64,000 bases of DNA from an uncultured Gammaproteobacteria bacterium (GTDB taxonomy: Bacteria > Pseudomonadota > Gammaproteobacteria > DATFLG01): contig CAWHLH010000003.1 of the NCBI GenBank assembly GCA_963830105.1, positions 856,373 to 920,372 of the forward strand, in the 5' to 3' direction. A program made the position numbers and the translations under genes. The notes beneath the pieces were generated by a model. The model saw only the letters and a list, made by a program, of their open reading frames with translations. It was not told where the DNA came from and did not search any database. Shown here piece by piece: positions 44,872 to 58,290 of the stretch (position 1 is the first letter of the stretch; each line of letters starts with the position of its first letter).

Positions 44872-44887
44872 TGGCACCCCGCTTGCA
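44872..44887 (+). promoter_or_regulatory. Sigma54 (-24/-12) promoter of the regulator-porin operon
   Basis: TGGCAC-CCCGC-TTGCA, consensus GG-N10-GC. Confidence 0.75.
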
Positions 44888-45223
44888 GATGTTCGCTCCT
44901 AGCGCAATATTGTGGGGGCGAGGCTATGGAAAGTGCTCGCGCACCAACTCGTACAGTGCACTTCGACCCTTGTGTGGTGACCGCCGCGCCGATCACCACA
45001 CGGTTTTCCGCACGTCCGGCCTGCCGCCATCGGCCCGACCCACGGGCCGTCGCTCACTCCCGCCATCGAGTCGCGCACAGTCGCCCGGCGCACGCGCAGT
45101 TGACGTCGGGCAGCCAATGGCTTGTGCCTTGGCAGCATTTGTTGTCGCCCGCCTTGCCCCGACGCGGGGTCCTCTCCCCATGCTCCCCGTCGTCGCACCC
45201 CATGGAGATCAGGAGTTTCGATC

Positions 45224-46603
45224 ATGGAACGACAAAGAATCATCTATCTGAAGCCGCCGACCGACAGCGCCTCACTGGAGAATCAGCTCACCAGCGCCGA
45301 TTGGGCGGTGGCGGCCACCACCGACATCGACACGGCGGCACACTGGTCCCAGGATCGCGGCGTGTGCGTCGGACTGATCCACTTCAGCGAAACCCATCTG
45401 GAACAGCACAAGCACGCAATTGAAGGCCTCATGGCGGTCAACCCCAACCTGGAGTGGATCGGTGTCTTGCCCAGGGAACTGCTCGAGGCCGCCATCCGTA
45501 GCGGACTGGTTCCCGGTTTTCTGTTCGATTACCACACGCTGCCAATCGATCTGCCACGGTTGCTGCACACCATCGGCCATGCCTGCGGCATGGCAAACGC
45601 CAACCAGCAGGCATCCTTCCTCTTGAGCGAGCCCGCGGAGCGAGTCATGATCGGCAGCAGTGCCGCCATGCAGTGCGTCGTCCAGAACATCCGCAAAGTC
45701 GCCGGCGTCGACGCCCCGGTGATGATCACCGGCGAGAGCGGGACGGGAAAGGAACTCGCGGCACGCGCCATACACGCTCAGTCCCCGCGCCGCCGCGGAC
45801 CGTTTCAGGCCATCAATTGCGGCGCCCTGCCCACCCACCTCATTCAGTCGGAACTGTTCGGTCACGAAAAAGGCGCATTCACCGGGGCCCACCGACGCCA
45901 CACCGGTCGCATAGAAGCGGCGAACGGCGGCACGGTTTTCCTGGACGAGATCGGCGACCTGTCCCTGGATCTTCAGGTCAACCTGCTGCGCTTCCTGCAG
46001 GAAGGTACGATCGAGCGGATAGGCAACACCGAACCGCTGCGGGTGAATGGCCGCGTGATAGCGGCGACCCACGATGACTTGCAGGAAGCCGTGCAACGGG
46101 GTCGTTTCCGCGAGGATCTGTACTACCGCCTGAACGTGCTGCACCTGAGGCTACCGCCGCTTCGAGAGAGGCGCGAGGACATCGAAGCTCTGGCGGAGCA
46201 CTACTTCCACCAATACCACCGGGAACGGAACCGCAATGTACGCGGATTCAGCCGCCACGCTCTGGACGCGCTGAAAGCCTACGACTGGCCGGGAAACGTT
46301 CGTGAACTGGTGAATCGCGTACGGCGGGCGACCATCATGTGCGAACATCGGCTCATCTCCCCCGCCGAGCTGGGACTGGACGCCAAGACCGTCGCCCAGG
46401 GTGCGTCTGCGACGCTGGCCCATGCGCGCAGCATGGCCGAACGTCAGGCAATACTGGACTCCCTGATGCTGACCAACAACAACATTTCGGAGGCGGCCCG
46501 CCGACTCGGCGTGGCACGCGTCACGCTATACCGCCTGATGGACAAATACGGCCTTGCTATACCTAACCGGTCCGGTGGCGAGCCCATGCACTCGCGCGCA
46601 TGA
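45224..46603 (+). CDS. Sigma54-dependent enhancer-binding protein, VpsR-like N-terminal domain
   Basis: [35 protein letters not shown], Fis-type HTH; atypical receiver ending FDYHTLP; AGGAG RBS. Confidence 0.9.
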
Positions 46604-46644
46604 GCGGTACCCGGGACGGCGTCAACAACAGGGGGAGAATCGCC

Positions 46645-48015
46645 ATGGGAAGAGGTTTGCGGGTGACAGCCCTGCACCTGGGGCTGATCGCGGCGCTTGC
46701 CGCCGGCAACGTCACTGGAGAAACACTGGGTGGGAAACTGGACAAACTGCAGAAGGCCCTGGAGCGGCAGGACCGCGTCGCGGCCCGGCAGCGCGAGCGG
46801 CTCGCCGAACAGGCCCGCGAACTGGCCCGTCAACGGGCGCTGATCGAACAGCAGCTTCGCGACCTGGACGCCCTGCGCCGGCGCACGATGGCCACGCGGC
46901 AGATGGAACACGCACGGGGTGCCGGTCCCGGCGCACCCGCCACGAGGGACAACACCGAACCCGCAAGAGCAGCGGCACGTCCCGCAGCCCAGACGCCGGC
47001 GGCCGCCACCCGGCAGGTGGCACAGGCGCAAACCGGCAGCAAGCCCGTCGGCCAGGCGCCCGCATCGACCGAGAAACCACCCCAGATCCAATCGATCGCC
47101 GAGATAGGCGGCATCCTGACGCCTGAAGGACACTGGGTCCTGGAACCGACGCTCCAGTACTCCAATTCCCAGGTCAACCAATTCACGTTCCTGGGCGTGC
47201 AGATCCTCGACACGTTTCTGATCGGCATCCTGGAGGCCCAGGACCAGGATCGCAACATTCTGTCGCCGTCCCTCACGGTGCGTTACGGCCTGACCAACCG
47301 CATGGAACTGGAGGCAAAGATCCCGTACATCTGGCGCGACGACACCTTGAAGGCGGCCATCCCCCAGGCCACCCAGGGCGACCAGTCGACGCAGATCACC
47401 CGCAACCTGCGCGGGTCGGGCATCGGCGATGTGGAGATCGCCGCCCATTACCAGATCAACCGGGGGCTGGGCGGCTGGCCCTATTTCATCGGGAACCTGC
47501 GCTACAAGTCGACGACCGGCAAAGGGCCTTTCGATGTCAGCCGCAACGCGGACGGCATCGAAACGGAACTTGCCACCGGCTCGGGTTTCCAGGCTATCGA
47601 ACCCAGTGTCACCATCCTGTTTCCTTCGGACCCGGCGGTGTTCTTTGCCAACGTGGGCTACGACTTCAACCTGAAGAGCAACGTCAACAAAACCTTCTCA
47701 GTCAGCGGTAGCCAGCCCCAGACCGTGCAGGAGGTGGACCCCGGAGATGCCTTCCGCATGAGCTTTGGCATGGCCTATGCCATCAACCAGGCGGCCTCAT
47801 TCACCCTCGGCTACAAGGCCGACTTCATCCAGAGCACCGATACGACGATCAACGGCGTCAAGCTCAGCTCGTCGAGCCTTAAGCTGGGAGCAATGCTGCT
47901 CGGCTTCGGCTATCGCATCAACGACCACACAAGCGCCAACGTCAATCTGGAACTCGGCGTCACCGCCGATGCCCCCGACGTGACCATGACCCTGCGGGTT
48001 CCCTACGCCATGTGA
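46645..48015 (+). CDS. FapF-like outer-membrane beta-barrel transporter with N-terminal coiled coil
   Basis: Signal peptide, coiled coil, Ala/Pro linker, VRYGLTNRMELEAKIPYIWR, GIGDVE, ATGSGF, SDPAVFF, C-terminal LRVPYAM; alternative start at 46600. Confidence 0.75.
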   Translation: MGRGLRVTALHLGLIAALAAGNVTGETLGGKLDKLQKALERQDRVAARQRERLAEQARELARQRALIEQQLRDLDALRRRTMATRQMEHARGAGPGAPATRDNTEPARAAARPAAQTPAAATRQVAQAQTGSKPVGQAPASTEKPPQIQSIAEIGGILTPEGHWVLEPTLQYSNSQVNQFTFLGVQILDTFLIGILEAQDQDRNILSPSLTVRYGLTNRMELEAKIPYIWRDDTLKAAIPQATQGDQSTQITRNLRGSGIGDVEIAAHYQINRGLGGWPYFIGNLRYKSTTGKGPFDVSRNADGIETELATGSGFQAIEPSVTILFPSDPAVFFANVGYDFNLKSNVNKTFSVSGSQPQTVQEVDPGDAFRMSFGMAYAINQAASFTLGYKADFIQSTDTTINGVKLSSSSLKLGAMLLGFGYRINDHTSANVNLELGVTADAPDVTMTLRVPYAM

Positions 48016-48208: not shown

Positions 48209-48826
48209 TCAGGGCAGCTGCCCGCTCTGAAGGCCTATTCTGTTGCTCAACAACGTGTCGCGTACCGCCTGCTGAAACTCTTTGAAACGGGCCACGCCAA
48301 CCGTGATATTGAGCTGCTGCTGAATCTGGCGGTCGCTGGCGGTGTTGACCAACAGCCCGATCACCCGGCTCTGGCTGATGTCATGGACCGCGAGCGTCGT
48401 GCCTTTGGCGTCCTGTACGATCACTCCGCCACCCGCCGCGACACCGGCGAGATCGGCTCCCTTCAAACCCGCCGCAGCCAGTCGTGCCGCCGTGGCCGCA
48501 TCCACCGGCCGCCCCGCACCACCGATCACCTGCTGCCCGCTCAGTTGCCCGCTATCATTCACGGTAAACGTGCTCTGCAATGCCAGCTGACCGTCGATGA
48601 CCGTGCGAACCTGAGCTCCGAACTCGAACTTCATGCCGGCGAAGTCGAAGCCCCCGCGGCGCTCGGCCAGATCCTGCTCACTGACCGCCGTCAGTCCCGC
48701 GAACGGGTGCGGCCCGACGGGTCCGGCCGCGGCGGGACAAACCCATCCCGGGACCGCGCTGGCGGCGAGCGCCAGCGCGCAGCGCGCGCCTACCCGGCCC
48801 ATGATGCGTGCCAACAGGACGGCCAT
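48209..48826 (-). CDS. Secreted FapE-like accessory protein
   Basis: Signal peptide, VSEQDLAERRGGF...FEFG motif, NTASDRQIQQQLNI; next to the C39 peptidase. Confidence 0.55.
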   Translation of the reverse strand: MAVLLARIMGRVGARCALALAASAVPGWVCPAAAGPVGPHPFAGLTAVSEQDLAERRGGFDFAGMKFEFGAQVRTVIDGQLALQSTFTVNDSGQLSGQQVIGGAGRPVDAATAARLAAAGLKGADLAGVAAGGGVIVQDAKGTTLAVHDISQSRVIGLLVNTASDRQIQQQLNITVGVARFKEFQQAVRDTLLSNRIGLQSGQLP

Positions 48827-48830
48827 CGCG

Positions 48831-49541
48831 CTATCTCCCGAATTCGTTGATGCCGGGAAGGTTCAAGGTGAACATCCCCAGTCCTGAAAACGGCCTGCCT
48901 TCGGCAATCGGCGGTTGGGGCCAGATACGCCAGTCGCGCTCGGTGTTGAAGTGCGCGCGGGCAATATTGATTCGACCGCGGGCCGCCAGCACGGGGCCGT
49001 CCCAGATCCTTTCGAATGCCCGGCGCGGCAGCGCCACAGACCCCGCCGCCGGATCCGCCAGCAGCACGCGGTCACCCTCGATGCCTTTGATCACCACAAA
49101 GTGCTTGTAGCCGCGGGTATTGACCAGGGCGATCATGGGTACACCGATCTTTGCGATCTGGTCCAGCGTCATCCTGAAACCGTCGGAGTGCAGTCCCCGA
49201 CTGTCCAGATAACGCTTCATGTCGAGCATGGAGAATCCGTATGTACGGATCTTGCGTTGATCGCCGACCCGGAACATGGCCTTGAATACTGCGGCTTCCG
49301 GCGTCGGCATATCGTAGTGGTAGGTCAGTAGGGTGGAGATGGCCGCCGATCCACAGCTGTAGTCGTAGCGCTGGTGAACAACGGTCTGCCAGCGCGCCTC
49401 GCCCAGGCTGGACACCGGGACATTGTAGGCACCGGCCACCCCTTCGATGTGCAGTGCACCGGCATGGGCGAAGCCCGCCAACAGTGCACCGGCCAGGACC
49501 GCCAACCACCTGCTCTGGGGCTTACTCCGGGGCTTGCTCAT
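48831..49541 (-). CDS. Periplasmic C39 family peptidase (FapD-like)
   Basis: Signal peptide; VHQRYDYSCGSAA (Cys), GFSMLDMKRY, YKHFVV (His), LADPA (Asp); no ABC domain. Confidence 0.9.
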   Translation of the reverse strand: MSKPRSKPQSRWLAVLAGALLAGFAHAGALHIEGVAGAYNVPVSSLGEARWQTVVHQRYDYSCGSAAISTLLTYHYDMPTPEAAVFKAMFRVGDQRKIRTYGFSMLDMKRYLDSRGLHSDGFRMTLDQIAKIGVPMIALVNTRGYKHFVVIKGIEGDRVLLADPAAGSVALPRRAFERIWDGPVLAARGRINIARAHFNTERDWRIWPQPPIAEGRPFSGLGMFTLNLPGINEFGR

Positions 49542-49571
49542 GAGCCGTCCCTGGGACCGCGCCACGCGACC

Positions 49572-49943
49572 CTATTGGAGATTGAAGGTCACACCGATGG
49601 CCGCGTCCACCGCGTTGTTGTTGCCCGTCACGATATTGAACAACCCCACCCCCCCGAAGTGATCGAGGGCATTCGGCCCGATGGTCACGCTACCGCTGTT
49701 GATGGTACCCGCCTGGAAGCTGCTGCCGTTAATGGTGGCCGCCAGGTCCTGATTGCTCTCAACGGTGATGGTGGTATGCCCTTCGCGACCTCGAAACTGC
49801 GCCAGTTCCGAACCGTCAACGGTGGCCGCCGTGGCAAACATGTCGTCACTGGCACCGGCGGCACTGACGCCAGCGGCCAGACATGTGCCTCCGCTGGCCA
49901 GCACGGCAGCCACCAGCATCCATCCCCCTACTTGCATTCTCAT
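49572..49943 (-). CDS. Small secreted FapB-like protein (single amyloid-type repeat)
   Basis: Signal peptide, VDGSELAQFRG, SGSVTIGPNALDHFGGVGLFNIVTGNNNAV...VTFNL. Confidence 0.6.
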   Translation of the reverse strand: MRMQVGGWMLVAAVLASGGTCLAAGVSAAGASDDMFATAATVDGSELAQFRGREGHTTITVESNQDLAATINGSSFQAGTINSGSVTIGPNALDHFGGVGLFNIVTGNNNAVDAAIGVTFNLQ

Positions 49944-50031
49944 GGCACGATCCCTCGTCCAGGCCTGCCTGATGGCGCTACCGCTGCGGGCCGGCGGGCC
50001 CCATGCCCACCGGCCCGCCCGCCCACATCGG

Positions 50032-51381
50032 TCAGGGGCCGCCGACCGCCGACCCGCTGCCGATGCTCACACCCGAATTGGCGGCGATGGACACGCCACC
50101 GAGGGTGGAGTTGTACAACCCCGACGAGATGTTGATGTTGGCGATGCCGCCGAAGGTACCGGTGCCACCAGCCACCGCAACGCTCGCTCCGCCGGTGCTG
50201 AGGGTGCCGCCGCCGCCGAGGCCGCCATTGCCGCCGGCACCACCGTCACCACCCATACCGCCGTTACCGCCGTTACCGCCGGCACCGCCCATGCCACCGG
50301 AAGCCACGTTGCCGCCATTGTTGGTGGTGCCGCCATCACCGCCTGTGCCCCCGCTACCGGAGTTGGCGCTGTTGCCGCCATTGTTGGTGGTGCCACCGGC
50401 ACCACCCGCACCGCCCGCACCGGCGTTGGCTGTGTTGGCGCCGTTGTTGATGGTGCCGCCGTCGCCTCCCGTGCCGCCGTTGCCGGCATTAGCGGTATTG
50501 CCGCCGTTGCCGGTATCGCCGCCGTTGCCGCCGTTGCCCGCGGCATTGGTGCTGCCACCGCTGCCACCGCCGTCGCCGGTACCGTTGTTGCCGGCATAGA
50601 CCGAACCGCCGTCGCCGCCCTGGGCGTTGCCCGCGCCGGTGGCGTAACCCCCGTCGCCGGCAGTGTTGCCGCCACCGCCGTTGGCATTGCCCGATCCGGA
50701 AGCGCCACCGTTGGATTGTCCGTTCAAGCTCTCGGACGAATCGACAGCAACACTATGACCACCGTGGCCCCCATCGCCGCCATAGGCGCCGTTGGCGCTG
50801 CCATTACCGCTGGCGTGGCCACCGTCACCGCCGATATTGCCGCCGCCGCCATTGGCATTGCCGGAACCGCTGGCGCCGCCACTGCCATTCAGGCTGGTGG
50901 GCTGACCGTCGGTCCCGTTCTGGTAGCCAGTCCCGGACGAACCCCCGTTGCCGCCAGCACCGCCGTAGGCACTACCACCATAGCCGCCGTCACCACCGCT
51001 GGCACCGGCGCCGCCCACACCACCGTACACCCGTATGGGGGCACCGGTGACGGTAGAGGTCAGGGTCTGGTAGGAAATCACCTCGACATCGGTGTTGAAG
51101 GACTCGCTGTAGGCATGCGCGGTCCCGCCCGCGCCGCCCATGCCAGCACCGGTGGCCGTGCCACCGTCACCACCGGCTCCCGTACCGGTGGGACTGGCGT
51201 TACCGCCGGCGCCGCCGCTGACGCTGCCGCCGTTGCCGCCGTTCGCGGTTGCGGTAGCCATCGAGTCCACGGTAGCCAGGTTGCCATTGCCGAACGTATT
51301 TCGCGGATTGGCATAGGCCGTACTGGCCGCCGCCACGGCGAGAGCCAGCACCGACAGACTCATCGTGATTGGCTTGTACAT
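50032..51381 (-). CDS. Secreted glycine-rich repeat protein, paralog 3
   Basis: CAGGAGAG RBS, signal peptide (AYA-NP), AYSESFNTDVEVISYQTL motif, GGx repeats, C-terminal FGGIANINISSGLYNSTLG. Confidence 0.85.
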   Translation of the reverse strand: MYKPITMSLSVLALAVAAASTAYANPRNTFGNGNLATVDSMATATANGGNGGSVSGGAGGNASPTGTGAGGDGGTATGAGMGGAGGTAHAYSESFNTDVEVISYQTLTSTVTGAPIRVYGGVGGAGASGGDGGYGGSAYGGAGGNGGSSGTGYQNGTDGQPTSLNGSGGASGSGNANGGGGNIGGDGGHASGNGSANGAYGGDGGHGGHSVAVDSSESLNGQSNGGASGSGNANGGGGNTAGDGGYATGAGNAQGGDGGSVYAGNNGTGDGGGSGGSTNAAGNGGNGGDTGNGGNTANAGNGGTGGDGGTINNGANTANAGAGGAGGAGGTTNNGGNSANSGSGGTGGDGGTTNNGGNVASGGMGGAGGNGGNGGMGGDGGAGGNGGLGGGGTLSTGGASVAVAGGTGTFGGIANINISSGLYNSTLGGVSIAANSGVSIGSGSAVGGP

Positions 51382-51468
51382 GACACTCTCCTGTTGTCCT
51401 GTTGCCGGCCGGGCCCGGTTAAACCGGACCCGGCCTCTCCCTTGTGTCACTCCCTACGACACATCACA

Positions 51469-52683
51469 TCAGGGACTGGCTGTCCCGCTGCCGATGCTCA
51501 CACCACTGTGGGCCGCAACCGACACGCCCCCCAGAGTGGAGTTGTACAAGCCCGATGAGACATTCACGTTGCCAATGCCGCCAAACGCGCCGGCACCCAA
51601 CGCCACATTGACGTTGCCCGTGGTAAGGGCGCCGCCGTTGCCGGCACCACCGGCACCGCCATTGCCACCGGTACCGCCGTTGCCACCGGTACCGCCGGCG
51701 CCGCCGGCCGCCCCGGCACCGCCGTAGGCCATGTTGCCGCCGTTGTTGGTGGAACCGCCGTTGCCGCCGGCACCGCCGTTGCCGCCATTCGCGGTGTTGC
51801 CCCCGTTGCTGGTGGAGCCACCGGTACCGCCATTACCGGCCGCGCCCCCATCGGCGGTGTTGGTGCCGTTGGCGGTGGAGCCACCGGTCCCGCCGGAACC
51901 ACCGGCACCCCCATTGGCACTGTTGGTGCCGTTGGCCGTCGAGCCGCCGGCGCCGCCATCACCCGCGGTGTTGCCGCCGCCGCCATCGCCGGTGTTGCTG
52001 CCGGCATTGACGCCTCCGCCCGCGCCACCATAGGCATCGCCGTTTCCGCTCGCAGTGCCACCATAGCCGCCGGTGTTACCGCCACCACCGTTGGCATTCC
52101 CCGCACCGGAGGCCTGGCCTCCATAGCCGCCGGAGCCGCCACCGCCGCCGTCGGCGCTGCCGTCACCATAGGCGGTACCGCCGGCACCGCCCACGTTGCC
52201 GCCGCCACCGTTGGCATTCCCCGCACCGGAGGCCTGGCCTCCATAGCCGCCGTTGCCGCCCGATGCGCCGTCTGCGTTGCCGCCGTTGCCGCCGGAGGCC
52301 CCGTAGCCACCGTCACCACCTGTGCCTCCCCAGACGCGAACGGGCGATCCGGTGACCGTGGAGGTGAGGGTCTGGTAGGAGATCACCTCAATATCGGAAT
52401 TGAACGACTCGCTGTAAGCCTTGGTGTCGGCACCGCCGGCTCCGCCGGCTCCGGCCGTGTCCGCGGCCCCGCCGGCGCCACCGTTCCCTCCGCTTCCGCC
52501 GTTTCCTCCGTTGCCCCCGTAGACGTCACCGCCGTAGCCGCCATTGGCGTTTGCGGTGGCACTTGATGTCACCGTCGCGGTGTTGTCATTGCCGAACTTG
52601 TTCTTCGGATTGGCATAGGCGCTGCTTGCGGCCGCAACGGCCAAGGCGACAGCGGAGACACCCACTAACATCGGTTTGTACAT
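51469..52683 (-). CDS. Secreted glycine-rich repeat protein, paralog 2
   Basis: AAGGAG RBS, same signal/N-terminal/central/C-terminal motifs as its neighbours. Confidence 0.85.
   Translation of the reverse strand: MYKPMLVGVSAVALAVAAASSAYANPKNKFGNDNTATVTSSATANANGGYGGDVYGGNGGNGGSGGNGGAGGAADTAGAGGAGGADTKAYSESFNSDIEVISYQTLTSTVTGSPVRVWGGTGGDGGYGASGGNGGNADGASGGNGGYGGQASGAGNANGGGGNVGGAGGTAYGDGSADGGGGGSGGYGGQASGAGNANGGGGNTGGYGGTASGNGDAYGGAGGGVNAGSNTGDGGGGNTAGDGGAGGSTANGTNSANGGAGGSGGTGGSTANGTNTADGGAAGNGGTGGSTSNGGNTANGGNGGAGGNGGSTNNGGNMAYGGAGAAGGAGGTGGNGGTGGNGGAGGAGNGGALTTGNVNVALGAGAFGGIGNVNVSSGLYNSTLGGVSVAAHSGVSIGSGTASP
52085..52252. repeat. Identical 48-bp direct repeat, 120-bp period, inside paralog 2
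   Basis: ccaccgttggcattccccgcaccggaggcctggcctccatagccgccg at 52085-52132 and 52205-52252. Confidence 0.85.
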
Positions 52684-52770
52684 GGCTCACTCTCCTTAGT
52701 TTGGCTTCGTTTCAGAGCTTCCAGGGAACCACTTGCCCCTTGGTGCCCTGTATTCCGCGTTCCGCCTGCC

Positions 52771-53985
52771 TCAGTTGCCGATACTCACATTGGAGTGCGC
52801 CGCCACCGACACAGCACCCAACGTGGAGTTGTACAGCCCGGACGAGACGTTGATGTTGGCAATGCCGCCGAAGGTTCCGGCACCGACCGCGACGTTGACA
52901 TTGCCGGTGCTCAGCATGCCGCCCGCACCGTCTCCGCCATTGCCGCCCGTGCCACCATTGCCACCGGCACCACCCGTGCCGCCAGCGCCGCCGGTGCCGC
53001 CGTCGCCGCCATAGGCCATGTTGCCGCCGTTGGTGGTAGTACCACCGGCACCGCCGGCACCGCCATCACCGCCATTGGCACTGTTGGCACCATTGCTGGT
53101 GCTGCCACCACCGCCTCCATCGCCGCCTGCGGCCGCATTGGCGCTGTTGCCCCCATTGCTGGTGCTGCCGCCCGCGCCGCCGGTACCGCCGTCACCGGCG
53201 TTGGCGCTGTTGCCACCATTGCTGGTGGTGCCGCCAGCTCCACCGGCTCCAGCGGTGTTGTCGCTGCCGCCGTTGCCGCCGTTGTTGCCGGAATAGACGC
53301 TCCCGCCCGCGCCTCCATGGGCGTTTCCGTCTCCGGATGCGTCCCCGCCGTCGCCGCCGTAATTGGCTGCGCCGCCGTTGGCATTGCCTTGAGCCGTGGC
53401 CGATCCGCCCGAGCCGCCGGAACCGGCGGAGCTGCCGTTCGCGCTGCCGTCACCCCAGGCCTCGCCGCCGTTGCCGCCGTAGTTGCCGCCGCCCCCGTTG
53501 GCGTTGCCTGAACCCGATGCCGTGCCGCCGTCGGCGCCGTGTCCGCCACTGGCGCCGTCTGCGGAACCGCCGTTGCCGCCATAGCCGCCATCGGCACCGT
53601 TGCCGCCGAGGCCGCCATAGACACGGATCGGTGCGCCAGTGACCTGGGAATTCAAGGTCTGGTAGGAAATCACTTCGATATCGGTGTTGAACGATTCGCT
53701 GTAGGCGTGGGCGGTGCCGCCGGCGCCACCGGCCCCGGCCGTACTGGCGCTGCCACCGGCGCCGCCGGCACCTGTGCCGGTGGTGTCAGAGGTTGTGCCG
53801 CCGGCACCGCCGTTACCGCCGGTTGCGGAGCCGCCGTTGCCGCCATTGGCGTTGGCCATGGCCGTAGAGTCCACCGTCGCCGTGTTGGAGTTTCCGAACT
53901 TGTTCTTCGGATTGGCGTAGGCGCTGGTGGCAACCGCCACGGACAGTGCGACCGCCGACATACCTATCAAGAGTGGCTTGTTCAT
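52771..53985 (-). CDS. Secreted glycine-rich repeat protein, paralog 1
   Basis: GGAGG RBS before ATG 53985, MNKPLLIG signal peptide, same conserved motifs. Confidence 0.85.
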   Translation of the reverse strand: MNKPLLIGMSAVALSVAVATSAYANPKNKFGNSNTATVDSTAMANANGGNGGSATGGNGGAGGTTSDTTGTGAGGAGGSASTAGAGGAGGTAHAYSESFNTDIEVISYQTLNSQVTGAPIRVYGGLGGNGADGGYGGNGGSADGASGGHGADGGTASGSGNANGGGGNYGGNGGEAWGDGSANGSSAGSGGSGGSATAQGNANGGAANYGGDGGDASGDGNAHGGAGGSVYSGNNGGNGGSDNTAGAGGAGGTTSNGGNSANAGDGGTGGAGGSTSNGGNSANAAAGGDGGGGGSTSNGANSANGGDGGAGGAGGTTTNGGNMAYGGDGGTGGAGGTGGAGGNGGTGGNGGDGAGGMLSTGNVNVAVGAGTFGGIANINVSSGLYNSTLGAVSVAAHSNVSIGN

Positions 53986-54135: not shown

Positions 54136-54151
54136 AGCAAGGCGCGTGCCT
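54136..54151 (-). promoter_or_regulatory. Sigma54 (-24/-12) promoter of the glycine-rich operon
   Basis: Minus strand AGGCAC-GCGCC-TTGCT (GG-N10-GC), ~150 bp upstream of ATG 53985. Confidence 0.75.
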
Positions 54152-54577: not shown

Positions 54578-54922
54578 TCAACCGGGCGGCCAGGCCATGG
54601 GCCTGCCGCCCAGCACATGCAGATGGATGTGAAATACGGACTGGCCGGCCTCGGGATTGCAGTTCATGACCGTCCGGTAGCCCCGTTCCTGGACCTGGGC
54701 GTCGGCCGCCACCTGCTGGGCGGCGAGGAACATCCGGCCAACCAGCGACTCGTCCCCCGCACGCAGATCATTGAGAGTCGCGATGTGGCGCTTGGGCACC
54801 ACCAGTACATGCAGGGGGGCCTGCGGATTGATATCCCGGAACGCCATCACCTGGTCGTCCTCGTAGACCACGTCGGGCTCGATGTCCCCATTGACCATCT
54901 TGCAGAACAGGCAATCGCTCAT
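54578..54922 (-). CDS. hinT: HIT family nucleotide-binding protein
   Basis: MSDCLFCK, AFRDINPQAPLH, GQSVFHIHLHVLGGR..WPPG. Confidence 0.93.
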   Translation of the reverse strand: MSDCLFCKMVNGDIEPDVVYEDDQVMAFRDINPQAPLHVLVVPKRHIATLNDLRAGDESLVGRMFLAAQQVAADAQVQERGYRTVMNCNPEAGQSVFHIHLHVLGGRPMAWPPG

Positions 54923-55046
54923 ACACAGATCCCTTGGTTGCAACGGATGTCGGATGGATGCGTCAGCTGGCCGCCAACTGCAATGCCGGTCCCGTGTGGC
55001 CGACCATGGGGACCCGGCAATACCGGCCGCCCGCACGGGCCGGCAG

Positions 55047-55400
55047 TCAGACGAAATAGTCGACGCTGCGGCCCTGGGCCTGCGCGCCCGCCGTACCCAG
55101 GCGGGCGTTGTCCAGGTAGGCGCCCACCGCCCGTTGCGCCTGCAACCCACTGCCGGCCTTGGCCTCGGAGGAGGAACCGCCATTGTAGGTGCGCGACTGA
55201 AACTGGCCCGGGTGACGCCCGTAGAAGCGTTGATTGAGGAGCAGTTCACCCTGCACCGCCTGGCCGGCAACGGGCGGGGGCTGGGCCGGTAAGCTGCGAT
55301 CATAGGACTGTGGCGCCTGCTGCTGGTCCAGCGTGCGGTTCACCCGCTGCGGGTAGCGCCTCCCCGGGGAGACCGGCACTGGCAACCGAGCGATGTCCAT
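55047..55400 (-). CDS. Hypothetical protein (117 aa)
   Basis: ORF filling the recR-hinT gap on the operon strand; ends SVDYFV. Confidence 0.55.
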   Translation of the reverse strand: MDIARLPVPVSPGRRYPQRVNRTLDQQQAPQSYDRSLPAQPPPVAGQAVQGELLLNQRFYGRHPGQFQSRTYNGGSSSEAKAGSGLQAQRAVGAYLDNARLGTAGAQAQGRSVDYFV

Positions 55401-55476
55401 GACCGTGAATCCCTGATGTGGCTATGAGGTCGCGCCCGACCCTCTCAACGAATCGGCGGCACGCGCCGCGCTGCAA

Positions 55477-56075
55477 TCACTGGAATTCACGACGGCCGGT
55501 GAATGCATGGGACAGCGTTCCCCCGTCCACATATTCTAGCTCCCCCCCAGGGGGACACCATGGGCGAGCCGAGTGGCGCGCACGCCCCGTTCCCGGGCCA
55601 TTTCGCCGATGTAATGGGCGGTCGCCTCGCCTTCCACCGTGGGGTTGGTGGCAACAATGACCTCCTTGACCTCGCCGCTGTCCAGGCGTGCGGTCAACGC
55701 ATCCAACCCCAGTTCGTCCGGTCCGATCCCATCCAGGGGCGAGAGGTGCCCCATGAGCACGAAGTACAGCCCGCCAAAGCCGGTGGCCTGCTCCAGAGCC
55801 AGGACGTCCGCCGGGCTTTCCACCACGCACAGCAGGGAGCGGTCCCGGCGTTCGCTCGTGCAGAGCGGGCAAAGCTCGGTTTCGCTGAAGGTGCGGCACT
55901 GGCGGCAATGACCCACATGCTCCATGGCCTGGACCAGCGCCTCGGCCAGCCGGCGTCCTCCCTCGCGGTCGCGCTCCAGCAGGTGATAGGTCATGCGTTG
56001 GGCCGATTTCGGGCCCACACCCGGCAGGCAGCGCAATGCCTCCATGAGACGCTCGATGCGCAACGGCTGGGTCAT
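55477..56075 (-). pseudogene. recR: Recombination mediator RecR, frameshifted at a G7 tract near the 3' end (or sequencing error)
   Basis: [12 protein letters not shown]4 zinc finger, [11 protein letters not shown], then HGVPLGG-S-stop; conserved [15 protein letters not shown] continues in another frame to 55477. Confidence 0.85.
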
Positions 56076-56085
56076 GGCCGTCGGC

Positions 56086-56409
56086 TCAGAACGGCAGCTT
56101 CATGCCCGGCGGCAGACCCAGGCCGGAAGTCAGGGAAGAGAAACGCTCCTGGGTCAGGGCTTCCACCTTGTGCACCGCGTCGTTGACCGCAGCGGCCACC
56201 ATGTCCTCGAGCATGTCCTTGTCGTCGCCCAGCAGGCTGTCGTCCACCGCGATCCTGCGCACCTCATGCTTGCCGGTCATCACCACCTTGACCATGCCGC
56301 CGCCGGACTCGCCGGTCACTTCCAGGGTCGCCAGCTCTTCCTGAGCCTTCTGCAGGTTCTCCTGCATCTGCTGGGCCTGCTTCATGATATTGCCTAGACC
56401 ACCTTTCAT
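56086..56409 (-). CDS. ybaB: YbaB/EbfC nucleoid-associated protein
   Basis: [38 protein letters not shown]. Confidence 0.95.
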
Positions 56410-56490
56410 TACCGTATTCCTCTTGCTGTCAATTGGGTGCCGGCAGCGCGGGGCGCCGTGAGACGGTACGCGGACGCCGCCCCGCGGGCC

Positions 56491-58158
56491 TCAGTCCACC
56501 GGATGGATGGAGTCCGCCTGGATACGGGCATCGAAGGTTTCCTGCAGCGCCCGTACGTTGCTGTCGGTTTCGATCGCCTCCACCGCCGCAACCTGGCGCT
56601 CCTGCGCGCGGCGCACCTGCTCCTGAGCCGGCGTTTCCCCGTTCGGCGTGCCCACCTCGATCACCAGCCGGACATCGTGCCCGTAATGTTTCGCGAGCGC
56701 CTGGCGCAGGCGTTCCTCGAGAGCCTCGCTGCGCAGCTGGACCACCGCTGAATCCAGCACCAGCCGGATCCGGTCTCCTTCATGATCACGCAATGTGCAG
56801 TTGGCTGCCAGTTCCCGGACCATACCCTTCAGACCCAGATCGTCCATCAACGCCGGCCACGATGCGTCCCGGACGCTGGCCGGCGGCGTGAACCGCCGGG
56901 ACTCCGGTACAGGCTCGGCCCGGCCCTCGGCCGGTGGGGCGGACCCGGCCTGCGTCACCGCCGCGGACGTTGCAGGGGTCCCGGGAGCCGCTTTGCGGGG
57001 ACCGGACACCGCCGGGGCCGGTTCACGCTCGGCCACTGGAGCCTGCGGCGGCTCCGCACCGGCTGCCGTATCGGCCGGGCGAAACGCCAGCATGCGCAGC
57101 AGCACCATTTCCAGCCCGCCGCGCCCGTCGGGGGCCAGCGGCAGATCCCGGCGGCCGATCAGACCGATCTGGTAGAACAGCTGGGTGTCTTCCGCCGACA
57201 GCTGCCCGGCGAGTTCCATCACCACATCCCGGTCACCCAGGGTATCGTCCACCGCCTCCGGCAGCGTCTGAGCGATGGCCACCCGTTGCAGCATCGACAG
57301 CACATCGACCAGCACGGTCGCGAAATCGGGTACCTGCTCGGCCAGACGGGCAACACCGTCCAGCAGCGCCCGCGCATCGCCCGCCGCCAGCGCACGCAGC
57401 AGCCCGGTCACATGATCCTGCTCGATGGTGCCGAGCATGGCACGCACCTCCGCCTCGCGCACCGCGCCGGCACCATAGGCGATGGCCTGATCCAGCAGAC
57501 TGAGCGCGTCGCGCATGCTGCCATCGGCGGCGCGGGCCAGCTGATGCAGCGCAGCCGGTTCCGCTTCCAGCTTTTCCTTGTCGACGATGCGGGCGAGGTA
57601 ATCGCCAATCAGCGTCAACGGCAGCCGTTTGAGATTGAACTGCAGACAGCGCGACAGGATGGTCACCGGCAGACGCTGAGGATCGGTGGTCGCCAGCAGG
57701 AATTTCACATGGGGCGGGGGCTCTTCCAGAGTCTTGAGCAGGGCATTGAAGCTGTGGGTGGACAGCATGTGCACCTCGTCGATGAGGTACACCTTGTAGC
57801 GCCCACGGGTGGGTGCGTACTGGACGTTTTCGAGCAGCTCGCGGGTATCCTCCACCTTGGTGCGCGACGCCGCATCCACCTCGATGAGGTCGACGAACCG
57901 TCCTTCATCGATTTCCCGACAGGCACTGCACTCACCGCAAGGCTGGGAACTGACGCCGGCGGTCTCGCAGTTCAGGGACTTGGCCAGAATCCGGGCGATG
58001 GTGGTCTTACCCACACCCCGTGTGCCGGTAAACAGGTAGGCGTGGTGGAGACGGTCCCGATCAAGGGAGTTGACCAGCGCGCGCAGCACATGCTCCTGGC
58101 CGACCATTTCGTGGAAATTGCGGGGCCGCCACTTGCGTGCAAGAACTTGATAACTCAT
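56491..58158 (-). CDS. dnaX: DNA polymerase III subunit gamma/tau
   Basis: MSYQVLARKWRP, GTRGVGKTT, IDEVHMLS, TILSRC, GSMRDALSL. Confidence 0.97.
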   Translation of the reverse strand: MSYQVLARKWRPRNFHEMVGQEHVLRALVNSLDRDRLHHAYLFTGTRGVGKTTIARILAKSLNCETAGVSSQPCGECSACREIDEGRFVDLIEVDAASRTKVEDTRELLENVQYAPTRGRYKVYLIDEVHMLSTHSFNALLKTLEEPPPHVKFLLATTDPQRLPVTILSRCLQFNLKRLPLTLIGDYLARIVDKEKLEAEPAALHQLARAADGSMRDALSLLDQAIAYGAGAVREAEVRAMLGTIEQDHVTGLLRALAAGDARALLDGVARLAEQVPDFATVLVDVLSMLQRVAIAQTLPEAVDDTLGDRDVVMELAGQLSAEDTQLFYQIGLIGRRDLPLAPDGRGGLEMVLLRMLAFRPADTAAGAEPPQAPVAEREPAPAVSGPRKAAPGTPATSAAVTQAGSAPPAEGRAEPVPESRRFTPPASVRDASWPALMDDLGLKGMVRELAANCTLRDHEGDRIRLVLDSAVVQLRSEALEERLRQALAKHYGHDVRLVIEVGTPNGETPAQEQVRRAQERQVAAVEAIETDSNVRALQETFDARIQADSIHPVD

Positions 58159-58290
58159 GGGCCTGGGGTCAGCTCGCAGCAGAACTCGGAAGACGGTCTC
58201 CGGGCGTTGCCGGGCCGTCCGCAACCTCGCGGATTATACCCCAGGCCGCCCTCGACCGGGGCGCTCAAAGGGGCATAGCGGAAAACAAGA

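What the first reader, a model, noticed from the sequence alone, without database searches (positions are those of the whole stretch)
49572..53985. The Gly-rich proteins are a FapB-like core split in two by a polyglycine insertion
Seen: the small protein (49572-49943) reads contiguously TVESNQDLAATING-ssfqagt-INSGSVTIGPNALDHFGGVGLFNIVTGNNNAVDAAIGV. All three large paralogs have EVISYQTL(T/N)S(T/Q)VTG, then well over 200 Gly-rich residues, then L(S/T)TG..V..gag.FGGI.N.N.SSGLYNSTLG.VS. The two halves align by eye with the two halves of the small protein. Inference: all four share one polymerising beta-solenoid/amyloid unit, and the Gly-rich block is a passenger inserted in one surface loop. That would be a natural amyloid display scaffold, with the small insert-free protein as likely nucleator.
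Basis: partly seen in the sequence, partly recalled or inferred. Interest (0 to 1): 0.8.

Follow-up and report, generated by a model that had tools for sequence, protein, structure and literature searches.

The report
Glycine-loop subunits of Fap-like fibre
Three glycine-rich secreted proteins and their small neighbour share one short core, split in the large ones by a 230-270-residue glycine-rich repeat domain, and the genes belong to an unstudied distant cousin of the Pseudomonas Fap amyloid-fibre system.

Summary
The 123-aa protein (49572-49943, minus) and the three Gly-rich paralogs carry the quoted motifs. Pairwise BLASTP sees nothing. With the Gly block removed in a script, the small-protein family profile aligns in one colinear stretch of 55 columns to the joined flanks of 35 Gly-rich homologs (hhalign P 8.8e-7, score 40.6; 200 column shuffles: mean 13.1, maximum 24.9).

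The genes lie with a FapD-like C39 peptidase, a FapE-like protein, a FapF-like channel and a VpsR-type sigma-54 activator. In 19 of 19 related genome loci a Gly-rich gene, the small gene and the C39 gene stand in that order; 18 also hold the other two genes.

- The core is not FapB as such. NCBIfam FapB, FapC and FapE models miss it, and the small protein carries a FapE-type leader.
- The insert is not polyglycine. It is a repeat domain of constrained length under purifying selection.
- Polymerisation, the loop position and a nucleator role are untested. AlphaFold monomers were uninformative.

The scan has noted the same architecture on other DNA. I class it as a new variant of a known kind.

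The parts
44872..44887 (+). sigma-54 (-24/-12) promoter-like site upstream of the regulator and channel genes
   Evidence: TGGCAC-N5-TTGC with 0 mismatches. At up to 2 mismatches the window as a whole holds no more matches than shuffles do (36 against 36.5), so only the position argues for it. Inference.
45122..46603 (+). sigma-54-dependent activator with an N-terminal VpsR domain
   Evidence: Pfam Sigma54_activat 238 bits, VpsR 57.4 bits, HTH_8. A like regulator stands beside the genuine fap operon L033.
46600..48015 (+). FapF-like outer-membrane channel (N-terminal coiled-coil-like segment, Pro/Ala linker, beta-barrel)
   Evidence: NF058560 FapF E 1.2e-42, 146 bits, below the 700-bit cut-off, covering model positions 20-418 of 420. 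30% identity over 310 aa to FapF of L033. Pfam Phenol_MetA_deg 35.1 bits.
48209..48826 (-). FapE-like protein (205 aa) with the leader motif S-E-Q-D-L-A-E-R-R-G-G at residues 49-59 (48650-48682)
   Evidence: No Pfam or NCBIfam hit. hhalign of its family (19 sequences) against 8 genuine FapE gives P 1.9e-5, probability 77.6%. The leader is shared with FapE. It holds the gene position after the C39 gene, as fapE does.
48831..49565 (-). exported C39 cysteine peptidase, FapD-like
   Evidence: Pfam Peptidase_C39 72.6 bits, cut-off 22. NF058616 FapD 135 bits, below the 330 cut-off, and FilB 114 bits. 43% identity over 155 aa to FapD of L033, including the SCG and KHFVV motifs. In the tree it lies in the SG group, support 100/99.
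49572..49943 (-). small subunit (123 aa): signal peptide, leader motif at residues 45-53 (49785-49811), undivided core at residues 56-123 (49575-49778)
   Evidence: 88 relatives with E <= 0.001, none with a Pfam domain. Conserved leader and core. Core aligned to the G flanks.
50032..51381 (-). G1 (449 aa): N motif 51025-51123, Gly-rich block 50203-51024 (274 aa), C motif 50035-50202
51469..52683 (-). G2 (404 aa): N motif 52330-52428, Gly-rich block 51634-52329 (232 aa), C motif 51472-51633
   Evidence: AlphaFold model
52771..53985 (-). G3 (404 aa): N motif 53617-53715, Gly-rich block 52921-53616 (232 aa), C motif 52774-52920
54136..54151 (-). sigma-54 promoter-like site about 150 nt upstream of G3
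   Evidence: AGGCAC-N5-TTGC, 1 mismatch, with the GG and GC kept. Inference from position only.

Best explanation
The locus encodes a divergent Fap-type surface-fibre system, here called SG-type.

All subunits carry Sec-type signal peptides.

A periplasmic FapD-like C39 peptidase probably removes a second, bacteriocin-style leader from two proteins: the small subunit and the FapE-like protein. The leader reads E-L-x3-R-G-[GRK] and is predicted helical in the small protein.

A FapF-like outer-membrane channel exports the subunits.

The small subunit after the leader is 70 residues, about the size of one layer of the FapC cross-beta solenoid (62-72 residues). It is an undivided copy of a core that G1-G3 also have. 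In G1-G3 the first part (N motif) and the second part (C motif, which holds the Fap-repeat-like G-G-I-x-N-x-N-x-S-G stretch) are separated by a 232-274-residue Gly/Asn/Ala-rich repeat domain.

The likely product is a stacked fibre in which each G subunit contributes one rung and loops its Gly-rich domain outward. The small, insert-free subunit joins the same stack as a minor, processed component.

A VpsR-type sigma-54 activator probably controls expression.

Shown: the shared split core, the operon kinship with Fap, conservation of the cluster, selection on the insert and conservation of the leader.

Inferred: leader cleavage, export route, polymerisation, outward position of the insert and regulation.
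For: Shared split core:
- The in-silico deletion test gives P 8.8e-7, against a maximum score of 24.9 in 200 shuffles.
- The N block alone gives P 8.2e-6.
- In relatives of other systems the two motifs are contiguous. This holds for the C-terminal units of L053, L050 and L046, and for the four units of each multi-repeat protein in L044 and L045.
- In L049, L052 and L054 the two motifs are again split by Gly-rich sequence.

Kinship with Fap:
- C39 peptidase 135 bits to FapD and channel 146 bits to FapF.
- 43% and 30% identity to FapD and FapF of a genuine fap operon, L033, whose FapC passes the NCBIfam cut-off.
- The 205-aa protein's family against FapE: P 1.9e-5.
- Profile network: small to variant-small (the small proteins of the 11 related VS-type loci) 1.8e-6; variant-small to variant-large C-terminus 8.5e-8; variant-small to multi-repeat unit 1.8e-5; variant-small to FapE 3.2e-5; multi-repeat unit to FapB 3e-5; FapB to FapC 9e-17.

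Conservation:
- A G-like gene, the small gene and the C39 gene stand in that order in 19 of 19 genome loci. The FapE-like and FapF-like genes are present in 18 of 19; the 19th is cut by a contig end.
- The same arrangement recurs in metagenome loci.
- The SG-type C39 peptidases form one group, 24 rows, support 100/99.

Leader:
- The motif [ED][LIVM]x3RG[GRKMT] is found in 16 of 31 small proteins, 21 of 29 FapE-like proteins and 5 of 8 FapE.
- It is found in 0 of 61 G, 0 of 11 FapB and 0 of 9 FapC.
- It is found in 30 of 3392 other ORFs, at least 8 of which are unlabelled variant-small or FapE-like proteins.
- Near-variants of the motif are seen in the alignments.
- Rouse et al. 2017 (PMC5557850, passages read) report that FapD's target is unknown and that only FapE lacks its first ~70 residues.
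- The AlphaFold model of the small protein puts a helix at residues 44-51, over the leader, at low confidence.

Insert:
- dN/dS is 0.105-0.186 in the block and 0.059-0.114 in the core, window against L001, three paralog pairs.
- Length is 181-322 residues in 45 of 49 distinct homologs.

Layer size and variable linkers in FapC: PMC12459412 (passages) and PMC3792158 (passages).
Against: - No curated Fap subunit model detects the small, G or 205-aa proteins at E <= 1.
- The canonical Fap repeat motif is absent: regex 0 hits in G1-G3 and the small protein, against 3 in FapC of L033.
- The joined G core is significantly like the small family only. Against variant-small, multi-repeat, FapB, FapC and FapE profiles P is 0.021-0.5, so its tie to Fap repeats is transitive and contextual.
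- The C block alone is at the noise floor, P 0.016 and 0.0038.
- AlphaFold gives no confident fold for either protein, mean pLDDT 56.1 and 43.4, and does not pack the two motifs together.
- The constrained length and purifying selection of the Gly block argue that it is more than a passive displayed loop.
- A 230-residue domain on every 4.8 A rung would be crowded.
- No FapA-like gene is found in the window or in any SG-type locus.
- No experiment exists for any member.
Confidence: 0.6

Rival explanations
1. The shared N and C motifs are recognition or export signals for the C39/FapF-type machinery rather than a polymerising fold. The G proteins would then be secreted, largely disordered Gly-rich matrix or adhesive proteins that do not form an ordered cross-beta stack.
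For: AlphaFold predicts no confident fold for the motifs. The C motif lies at the extreme C-terminus in all 49 homologs that have both motifs, as export signals often do. The G core has no significant direct profile match to canonical Fap repeats.
Against: In the multi-repeat relatives (L044, L045) the same two-part unit occurs four times per protein, head to tail, like amyloid repeats and not like a terminal signal. That unit matches FapB repeats at P 3e-5. Fap subunits are also disordered as monomers (PMC12459412), so low pLDDT is expected either way.
Confidence: 0.17
2. The Gly-rich block is itself the structural element, for example a periodic 21-residue solenoid or a polyglycine-II-type bundle. 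The flanking motifs would cap, dock or nucleate it. On this reading the block is the business end of the protein and not an insertion into a core.
For: The block is under purifying selection and its length is constrained. It holds 21-aa repeats. The only part of the G2 model above pLDDT 50 within the block is residues 241-310, with four short strands exactly 21 residues apart at 254, 275, 296 and 317.
Against: The 21-aa unit is found in only 11 of 31 G proteins, the gammaproteobacterial ones. Block sequences differ widely between lineages, whereas the flanks are nearly invariant. Relatives carry other low-complexity blocks (Asn/Ser/Thr/Asp-rich) before an undivided core (L050, L053). The model confidence is too low to count.
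Confidence: 0.18
3. The likeness between the small protein and the G flanks is a chance or compositional effect of Gly/Asn/Thr/Val-rich sequence.
For: BLASTP is not significant. HMMER's bias correction removes most of the score. The C block alone is at the noise floor.
Against: The joined-flank test scores 40.6, against a maximum of 24.9 in 200 column shuffles that keep the composition, and against 13.1 reversed. Both parts align in the right order. The genes are neighbours in 19 of 19 genome loci.
Confidence: 0.03

Closest known systems
Pseudomonas Fap functional-amyloid system (fapABCDEF)
   Same: Both have a periplasmic C39 peptidase, an outer-membrane channel with an N-terminal coiled coil followed by a barrel, and a FapE-like protein directly after the peptidase gene. 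Both have Sec-exported Asn/Gly-rich subunits that share a repeat-type core. A sigma-54 VpsR-type regulator stands beside both this locus and the genuine operon L033.
   Different: The subunits escape the NCBIfam FapB, FapC and FapE models. They have one unit per protein and not three. They lack the GN-x-G-N-x2-AG-x2-NQQ-x-N motif. No FapA is found. The peptidase and channel score far below the equivalog cut-offs. The peptidases form a separate, well-supported group. A leader-bearing small subunit has no counterpart named in Fap.
FapC variable linkers, and the single-repeat FapB of Vibrio (Dueholm et al. 2013, PMC3792158)
   Same: Conserved repeats are thought to form the core while highly variable linkers are thought to be exposed and to tune fibre properties. 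Repeat number varies from 1 to 16 (passages).
   Different: Here the variable segment lies inside one unit, between its first and second parts. It is Gly-rich with internal tandem repeats, it is far longer than the unit itself, and its length is constrained within the family.
Acinetobacter Fil 'putative pilus' system (NCBIfam FilB and FilC)
   Same: The C39 peptidase and the channel score almost as well against FilB (114 bits) and FilC (76 bits) as against FapD and FapF.
   Different: Both scores are far below the cut-offs of 475 and 630 bits. No NCBIfam family of any name, Fil included, matched the small, G or 205-aa proteins at E <= 1. I found no paper on how the Fil system works (search listing only).
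Double-glycine leader peptides cut by C39 domains of bacteriocin exporters
   Same: The leader motif has acidic and hydrophobic positions and then Gly at -2, and a C39 peptidase is encoded next door.
   Different: The leader follows a Sec signal peptide. The peptidase is a free exported protein, not a domain of an ABC transporter. Position -1 is often Arg or Lys. The Gly-rich proteins themselves have no leader, 0 of 61. The canonical leader consensus is recalled, apart from what Rouse 2017 states.

Membership tests
FapD (NCBIfam NF058616, equivalog) | Score at or above the curated cut-off of 330 bits | tested here: not met
   135.3 bits, E 1.8e-39. Genuine-operon FapDs in the class sample scored 197-284 bits.
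Peptidase C39 (Pfam PF03412) | Gathering score, and the Cys and His motifs conserved | tested here: met
   72.6 bits against a cut-off of 22. The SCG and KHFVV motifs align with FapD of L033. Which residues are catalytic rests on Rouse 2017 and on recall.
FapF (NCBIfam NF058560, equivalog) | Score at or above the curated cut-off of 700 bits | tested here: not met
   146.2 bits, but nearly full-length (model 20-418 of 420). 30% identity over 310 aa to FapF of L033.
FapE (NCBIfam NF058559) | HMM match | tested here: not met
   No hit at E <= 1 for the 205-aa protein. Profile-profile comparison gives P 1.9e-5, probability 77.6%, and the leader is shared. It is a remote relative, not a member by the model.
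FapB / FapC (NCBIfam NF058557, NF058558) | HMM match | tested here: not met
   No hit at E <= 1 for the small protein, G1, G2 or G3. The same models recognise FapB and FapC of L033.
FapB / FapC | Repeat motif GN-x-G-N-x2-AG-x2-NQQ-x-N (as given in PMC5557850) | tested here: not met
   Regex gives 0 hits in G1-G3 and the small protein, 3 in FapC of L033, and 3 in FapB of L033 with a looser form.
FapB / FapC | Three imperfect repeats separated by linkers | tested here: not met
   There is one unit per protein. Exceptions with 1-16 repeats are in print (PMC3792158).
Fap system | FapA chaperone gene | tested here: not met
   The ILWDE-type motif is found in L033, L034, L043 and L044 only. It is absent from the window in all six frames and from the ORFs of 60-70 aa or more of the SG-type loci. 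Loss of fapA is a common deviation (PMC3792158).
Functional amyloid | Cross-beta fibre formation, dye binding, resistance to SDS and protease | not testable with these tools
   AlphaFold monomers were of low confidence. The complex predictor was unavailable.
C39 / double-glycine-leader substrates | Leader motif ending in Gly at -2, next to a C39 peptidase | tested here: met
   The motif is in the small protein (residues 45-53) and the 205-aa protein (residues 49-59). Cleavage itself cannot be tested here.
RTX calcium-binding repeats | Tandem GG-x-G-x-D-x-U-x nonapeptides | tested here: not met
   Regex gives 0, 1 and 0 matches in G1, G2 and G3.

The most novel reading that the evidence does not exclude
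A cross-beta fibre built from single-rung subunits. Each G subunit would add one 4.8 A layer and project a folded or semi-ordered ~230-residue Gly/Asn repeat domain, giving a dense bottle-brush surface fibre. The leader-bearing insert-free subunit and the FapE-like protein would be cut by the periplasmic C39 peptidase to prime export and start the stack. This would be a natural amyloid display scaffold. It would also name the long-sought substrates and cleavage motif of the FapD peptidase family.
Probability: 0.3. Interest if true: 0.7.

Novelty: new variant of a known kind. Interest (0 to 1): 0.5.

Why it matters
Fap is one of the few well-studied bacterial functional amyloid systems. Its subunit models miss this whole branch.

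The class sample gives a sense of scale. 39 of 301 genomes of the class hold a FapD-like peptidase at E <= 1e-20. This tally includes the window's own genome and three unpublished genomes (G039, G141, G296); without those three it is 36 of 298. None reaches the FapD cut-off.

This branch offers three things.
1. It offers a minimal, one-unit subunit for studying how a Fap-type layer folds and stacks.
2. It offers a natural test of how large a domain a cross-beta core can carry inside a layer.
3. It offers a readable leader motif, shared by FapE, FapE-like and small subunits. This turns the open question of what FapD cuts (PMC5557850) into a direct experiment.

It is not a new kind of system, and the scan has already met the same architecture in other genomes.

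Tried and rejected
- Pairwise BLASTP of the small protein against each G protein was not significant.
- A word-based homolog search with the G2 N-terminal region was swamped by Gly words: 8000 candidates, none at E <= 0.001.
- The same tool with the G3 C-terminal region found 1 protein among 121 candidates.
- A full HMMER scan of 1.84 billion representatives with the C-block profile gave 15 proteins at E <= 0.001. Most were fragments, so protein databases hold almost no full-length G proteins.
- Sequence searches of the Protein Data Bank found nothing. The small family's best hit was E 2. The G family had 0 hits at E <= 1. FapC fibril entries 9nqd and 9u4u exist but neither profile matched them.
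- The joined G core against canonical Fap, variant-small and multi-repeat profiles was not significant.
- The 21-aa repeat profile against the core motifs showed no likeness, P 0.24-0.74.
- AlphaFold2 monomers had mean pLDDT 56.1 (small) and 43.4 (G2), too low to say whether the two motifs pack together. I therefore ran no fold search.
- No RNA holder is listed among the public sequencing runs, and no reads were laid.
- Four natural short-block forms have blocks of 9-59 residues: P0093, P0094, P0095 (the gene in L059) and L062. All have altered C-termini. P0095 is an orphan gene far from any such operon. They may be decaying copies, so I do not count them as functional insert-less forms.
- I rejected a bacteriocin or microcin reading of the Gly-rich proteins. 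They have Sec-type signal peptides and no leader, 0 of 61. None of the eight proteins scanned in the cluster is an ABC exporter: the only matches to peptidase-containing ABC transporters are the C39 peptidase's own, and they cover its peptidase domain alone.
- I rejected an RTX reading.
- Paper searches found none that describes Gly-rich split Fap-like subunits or a defined FapD cleavage motif (search listings only). Supplementary files, such as Supplementary Fig. 18 of PMC5557850 on FapE GG motifs, could not be seen and may bear on the leader claim.


Full report
WHAT IS THERE

On the minus strand lie six genes in a row:
- G3, 52771-53985
- G2, 51469-52683
- G1, 50032-51381
- the small gene, 49572-49943
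- a C39 peptidase gene, 48831-49565
- a 205-aa gene, 48209-48826

Converging on them from the plus strand are a sigma-54 activator (45122-46603) and an outer-membrane protein (46600-48015).

G1-G3 are paralogs, 67% and 71% identical to G1. Each begins with a typical Sec-type signal peptide ending A-Y-A; this is read from the sequence, as no predictor was run.

After the signal peptide comes a conserved N-P-K/R-N stretch and a first Gly-rich segment of about 60 residues. Then come the N motif, a Gly-rich block of 232-274 residues (46-50% Gly) and the C motif at the very end. The mature proteins are almost uncharged: 2-4 Lys+Arg and 15-19 Asp+Glu.

THE OBSERVATION

BLASTP does not see the likeness.

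I collected 88 relatives of the small protein, none with a Pfam domain, and aligned 32 of them. I collected the G family from loci found with the small family.

Profile against profile, the N block matches small-family positions 57-79 at P 8.2e-6. The C block matches positions 80-112 at P 0.016, or 0.0038 after adding more diverse sequences. Reversed-template controls over 36 profile pairs reached P 0.0033, so the C block alone is not significant.

With the Gly block removed in a script, the flanks of 35 G homologs align to the small family in one colinear stretch of 55 columns: probability 91.4%, P 8.8e-7, score 40.6. With the two flanks swapped the score falls to 30.8, because only the N part aligns. 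Reversed, it is 13.1. In 200 column shuffles the mean is 13.1, the sd 2.8 and the maximum 24.9.

WHAT SYSTEM IT IS

- The peptidase is a C39 enzyme (Pfam 72.6 bits). Its nearest named family is FapD, at 135 bits against a cut-off of 330.
- The outer-membrane protein matches FapF over nearly the whole model, at 146 bits against a cut-off of 700.
- The activator has a VpsR domain.

To have real Fap proteins for comparison I searched 301 genomes of the class for FapD and fetched the best loci. L033 is a genuine fapA-F operon by NCBIfam, and its FapC passes the cut-off. The window's peptidase is 43% identical to that FapD, and its channel 30% identical to that FapF. The 205-aa protein's family matches FapE at P 1.9e-5 and sits where fapE sits.

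No NCBIfam or Pfam model recognises the small, G or 205-aa proteins.

A WIDER FAMILY OF SYSTEMS

The class sample also held 11 loci (L043-L047, L049-L054) whose peptidase and channel are closer to the window's than to FapD and FapF. I call these VS-type; L042 holds a peptidase only.

Each of the 11 has a small protein directly before the peptidase gene, with a leader and a C-terminal unit. All but L049 and L050 have a recognisable FapE-like protein after it. All but L047 and L051 have one or more large proteins before the small one. The large proteins come in three forms.
- In L044 and L045 they are multi-repeat proteins with four head-to-tail copies of a two-part unit.
- In L046, L050 and L053 a low-complexity region precedes one undivided unit.
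- In L049, L052 and L054 the unit is split by Gly-rich sequence, as in G1-G3.

The profile network ties these families together and to Fap:

| Pair | P |
|---|---|
| small to variant-small | 1.8e-6 |
| variant-small to variant-large C-terminus | 8.5e-8 |
| variant-small to multi-repeat unit | 1.8e-5 |
| variant-small to FapE | 3.2e-5 |
| variant-large C-terminus to multi-repeat unit | 9.3e-12 |
| multi-repeat unit to FapB | 3e-5 |
| FapB to FapC | 9.2e-17 |

The joined G core is tied significantly to the small family only.

The C39 tree separates canonical FapD (9 rows plus L042) from a group of 35 rows, support 100/100. Within that group the 24 SG-type rows form one group, support 100/99. Left out of the tree were rows of 200 aa or fewer, rows with E >= 1e-40, and the duplicates L020 and L048.

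NCBIfam recognises none of the VS-type subunits tried; the best is FapB at E 0.023 for the L044 protein.

DISTRIBUTION

In all 19 genome loci found with the small family, a G-like gene (1-3 copies) stands upstream of the small gene and a C39 gene downstream. 18 of 19 also have the FapE-like and FapF-like genes; L004 ends at the peptidase gene.

The loci come from gammaproteobacterial genome bins, from Kiloniellaceae and related Alphaproteobacteria (Pelagibius, Denitrobaculum), and from one bin labelled as an archaeon.

The small family was found in 2 of 300 genomes of the class sample, both in the window's genus. The window's own genome has one peptidase gene, one small gene and the three G genes, and no other copy.

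THE LEADER

Small proteins, FapE-like proteins and genuine FapE share a motif behind the signal peptide: an acidic residue, Leu, three residues, then R-G-[GRK].

| Group | With strict motif |
|---|---|
| small | 16 of 31 |
| FapE-like | 21 of 29 |
| FapE | 5 of 8 |
| G | 0 of 61 |
| FapB | 0 of 11 |
| FapC | 0 of 9 |
| C39 | 0 of 49 |
| other ORFs | 30 of 3392 |

At least 8 of the 30 'other' hits are unlabelled members of these families. The members that miss the strict form carry near-variants of it.

Rouse et al. 2017 state that FapD's target is unknown and that FapE alone lacks its first ~70 residues (passages). The motif in FapE of L033 lies at residues 53-61.

The small protein therefore resembles FapE in its leader. 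Its core is FapB-like only at the noise floor (P 0.0033), so 'FapB-like' is too specific. Cleavage is an inference.

THE INSERT

- It is not polyglycine: the longest Gly run is 4-5 residues.
- It holds 63-nt (21-aa) tandem repeats, 3.2-4.4 copies per gene. This unit is seen in 11 of 31 G proteins only.
- The insert sequence differs widely between lineages, whereas the flanks are nearly invariant.
- Its length is 181-322 residues (median of all 49: 215) in 45 of 49 distinct homologs. The four short forms (9-59 residues) have altered C-termini, and one is an orphan gene.
- dN/dS between the window and L001 is 0.105-0.186 in the block and 0.059-0.114 in the core (one species pair).
- It is not RTX.

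The block is thus a constrained, selected domain whose composition and position are conserved but whose sequence is not.

WHERE THE INSERT SITS

In the FapC fibril each layer has 62-72 residues and five strands. Layer 3 has an extended out-of-plane loop between a short strand (183-185) and the rigid core (203-234) (PMC12459412, passages).

The mature small subunit would be 70 residues. By eye, the N motif resembles the segment before that loop in the alignment of L033 FapC to chain 9nqd, and the C motif resembles the repeat after it. That would put the Gly block at the place of that loop. This mapping is inference only, because no profile comparison supports the N-motif part.

STRUCTURE PREDICTION

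- Small protein: mean pLDDT 56.1, a helix at 44-51 over the leader, and a hairpin at 98-108 and 111-122.
- G2: mean pLDDT 43.4. Only residues 241-310 exceed 50, with four strands 21 residues apart. The two motifs are not modelled.

Neither result supports or refutes packing of the two motifs. The complex predictor was unavailable.

REGULATION

A perfect TGGCAC-N5-TTGC lies at 44872-44887 before the activator gene. A one-mismatch copy lies at 54136-54151, about 150 nt before G3. At up to 2 mismatches the window as a whole has no excess of such sites, so this rests on position alone.

PRIOR KNOWLEDGE

Variable exposed linkers between conserved FapC repeats, and repeat numbers from 1 to 16, are in print (PMC3792158). 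I found no paper on Gly-rich split subunits or on a FapD cleavage motif.

Earlier notes of this scan describe the same architecture in other genomes. I reached my reading before seeing them and tested each point here.

VERDICT

This is a new variant of a known kind.

Noticed in passing
L033:6102-6968 (-) and other genuine FapE (L034-L041); window 48650-48682 and 49785-49811: Genuine FapE proteins carry the same leader motif (E-L-x3-R-G-R/K) as the FapE-like and small proteins here, at about the place where Rouse et al. 2017 found FapE to be N-terminally processed. FapA-like proteins of L033, L034 and L043 show a similar motif. This may mark the FapD cleavage site.
   Followed up: partly
L049 (G188:C1), same genus as the window: A congener carries a second, VS-type system with two Gly-rich split proteins and its own small subunit, peptidase and channel. 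The window's genome has only one C39 peptidase of this kind.
   Followed up: partly
L059:8001-8501 (+): An orphan 166-aa G homolog has only about 18 residues between the two motifs and an altered C-terminus. It lies among ABC-transporter genes on a long contig, far from any Fap-like operon. It may be a decaying copy or a real insert-less form.
   Followed up: partly
L019 (contig of a bin labelled Halobacteria archaeon): The whole bacterial-type cluster, outer-membrane channel included, sits on a contig binned as an archaeon. Its peptidase groups with a gammaproteobacterial one. It is probably mis-binned.
   Followed up: no
window 53900-53985, 52600-52683 and 51300-51381 (N-termini of G3, G2 and G1): Directly after the predicted signal-peptide cut, all G proteins and the large proteins of VS-type loci L049, L050, L053 and L054 begin A-N-P-x-N. 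This is a conserved mature N-terminus of unknown role.
   Followed up: no
window 49753-51558 (+), 50003-50599 (+), 52795-53511 (+) and others: Long antisense and off-frame ORFs (up to 601 aa, Ala/Pro/Val-rich) overlap the G genes. They are by-products of GC-rich Gly codons. This may be why protein databases hold almost no full-length G proteins.
   Followed up: partly
window 54578-58224: Downstream neighbours are housekeeping genes. A HIT-family-like ORF, recR-like, ybaB-like and dnaX-like ORFs were read from the translations only.
   Followed up: no
L043:11208-14807 (-): A very large RTX-like or adhesin-like repeat protein (over 1199 aa, cut by the locus end) lies upstream of the VS-type cluster in L043.
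   Followed up: no
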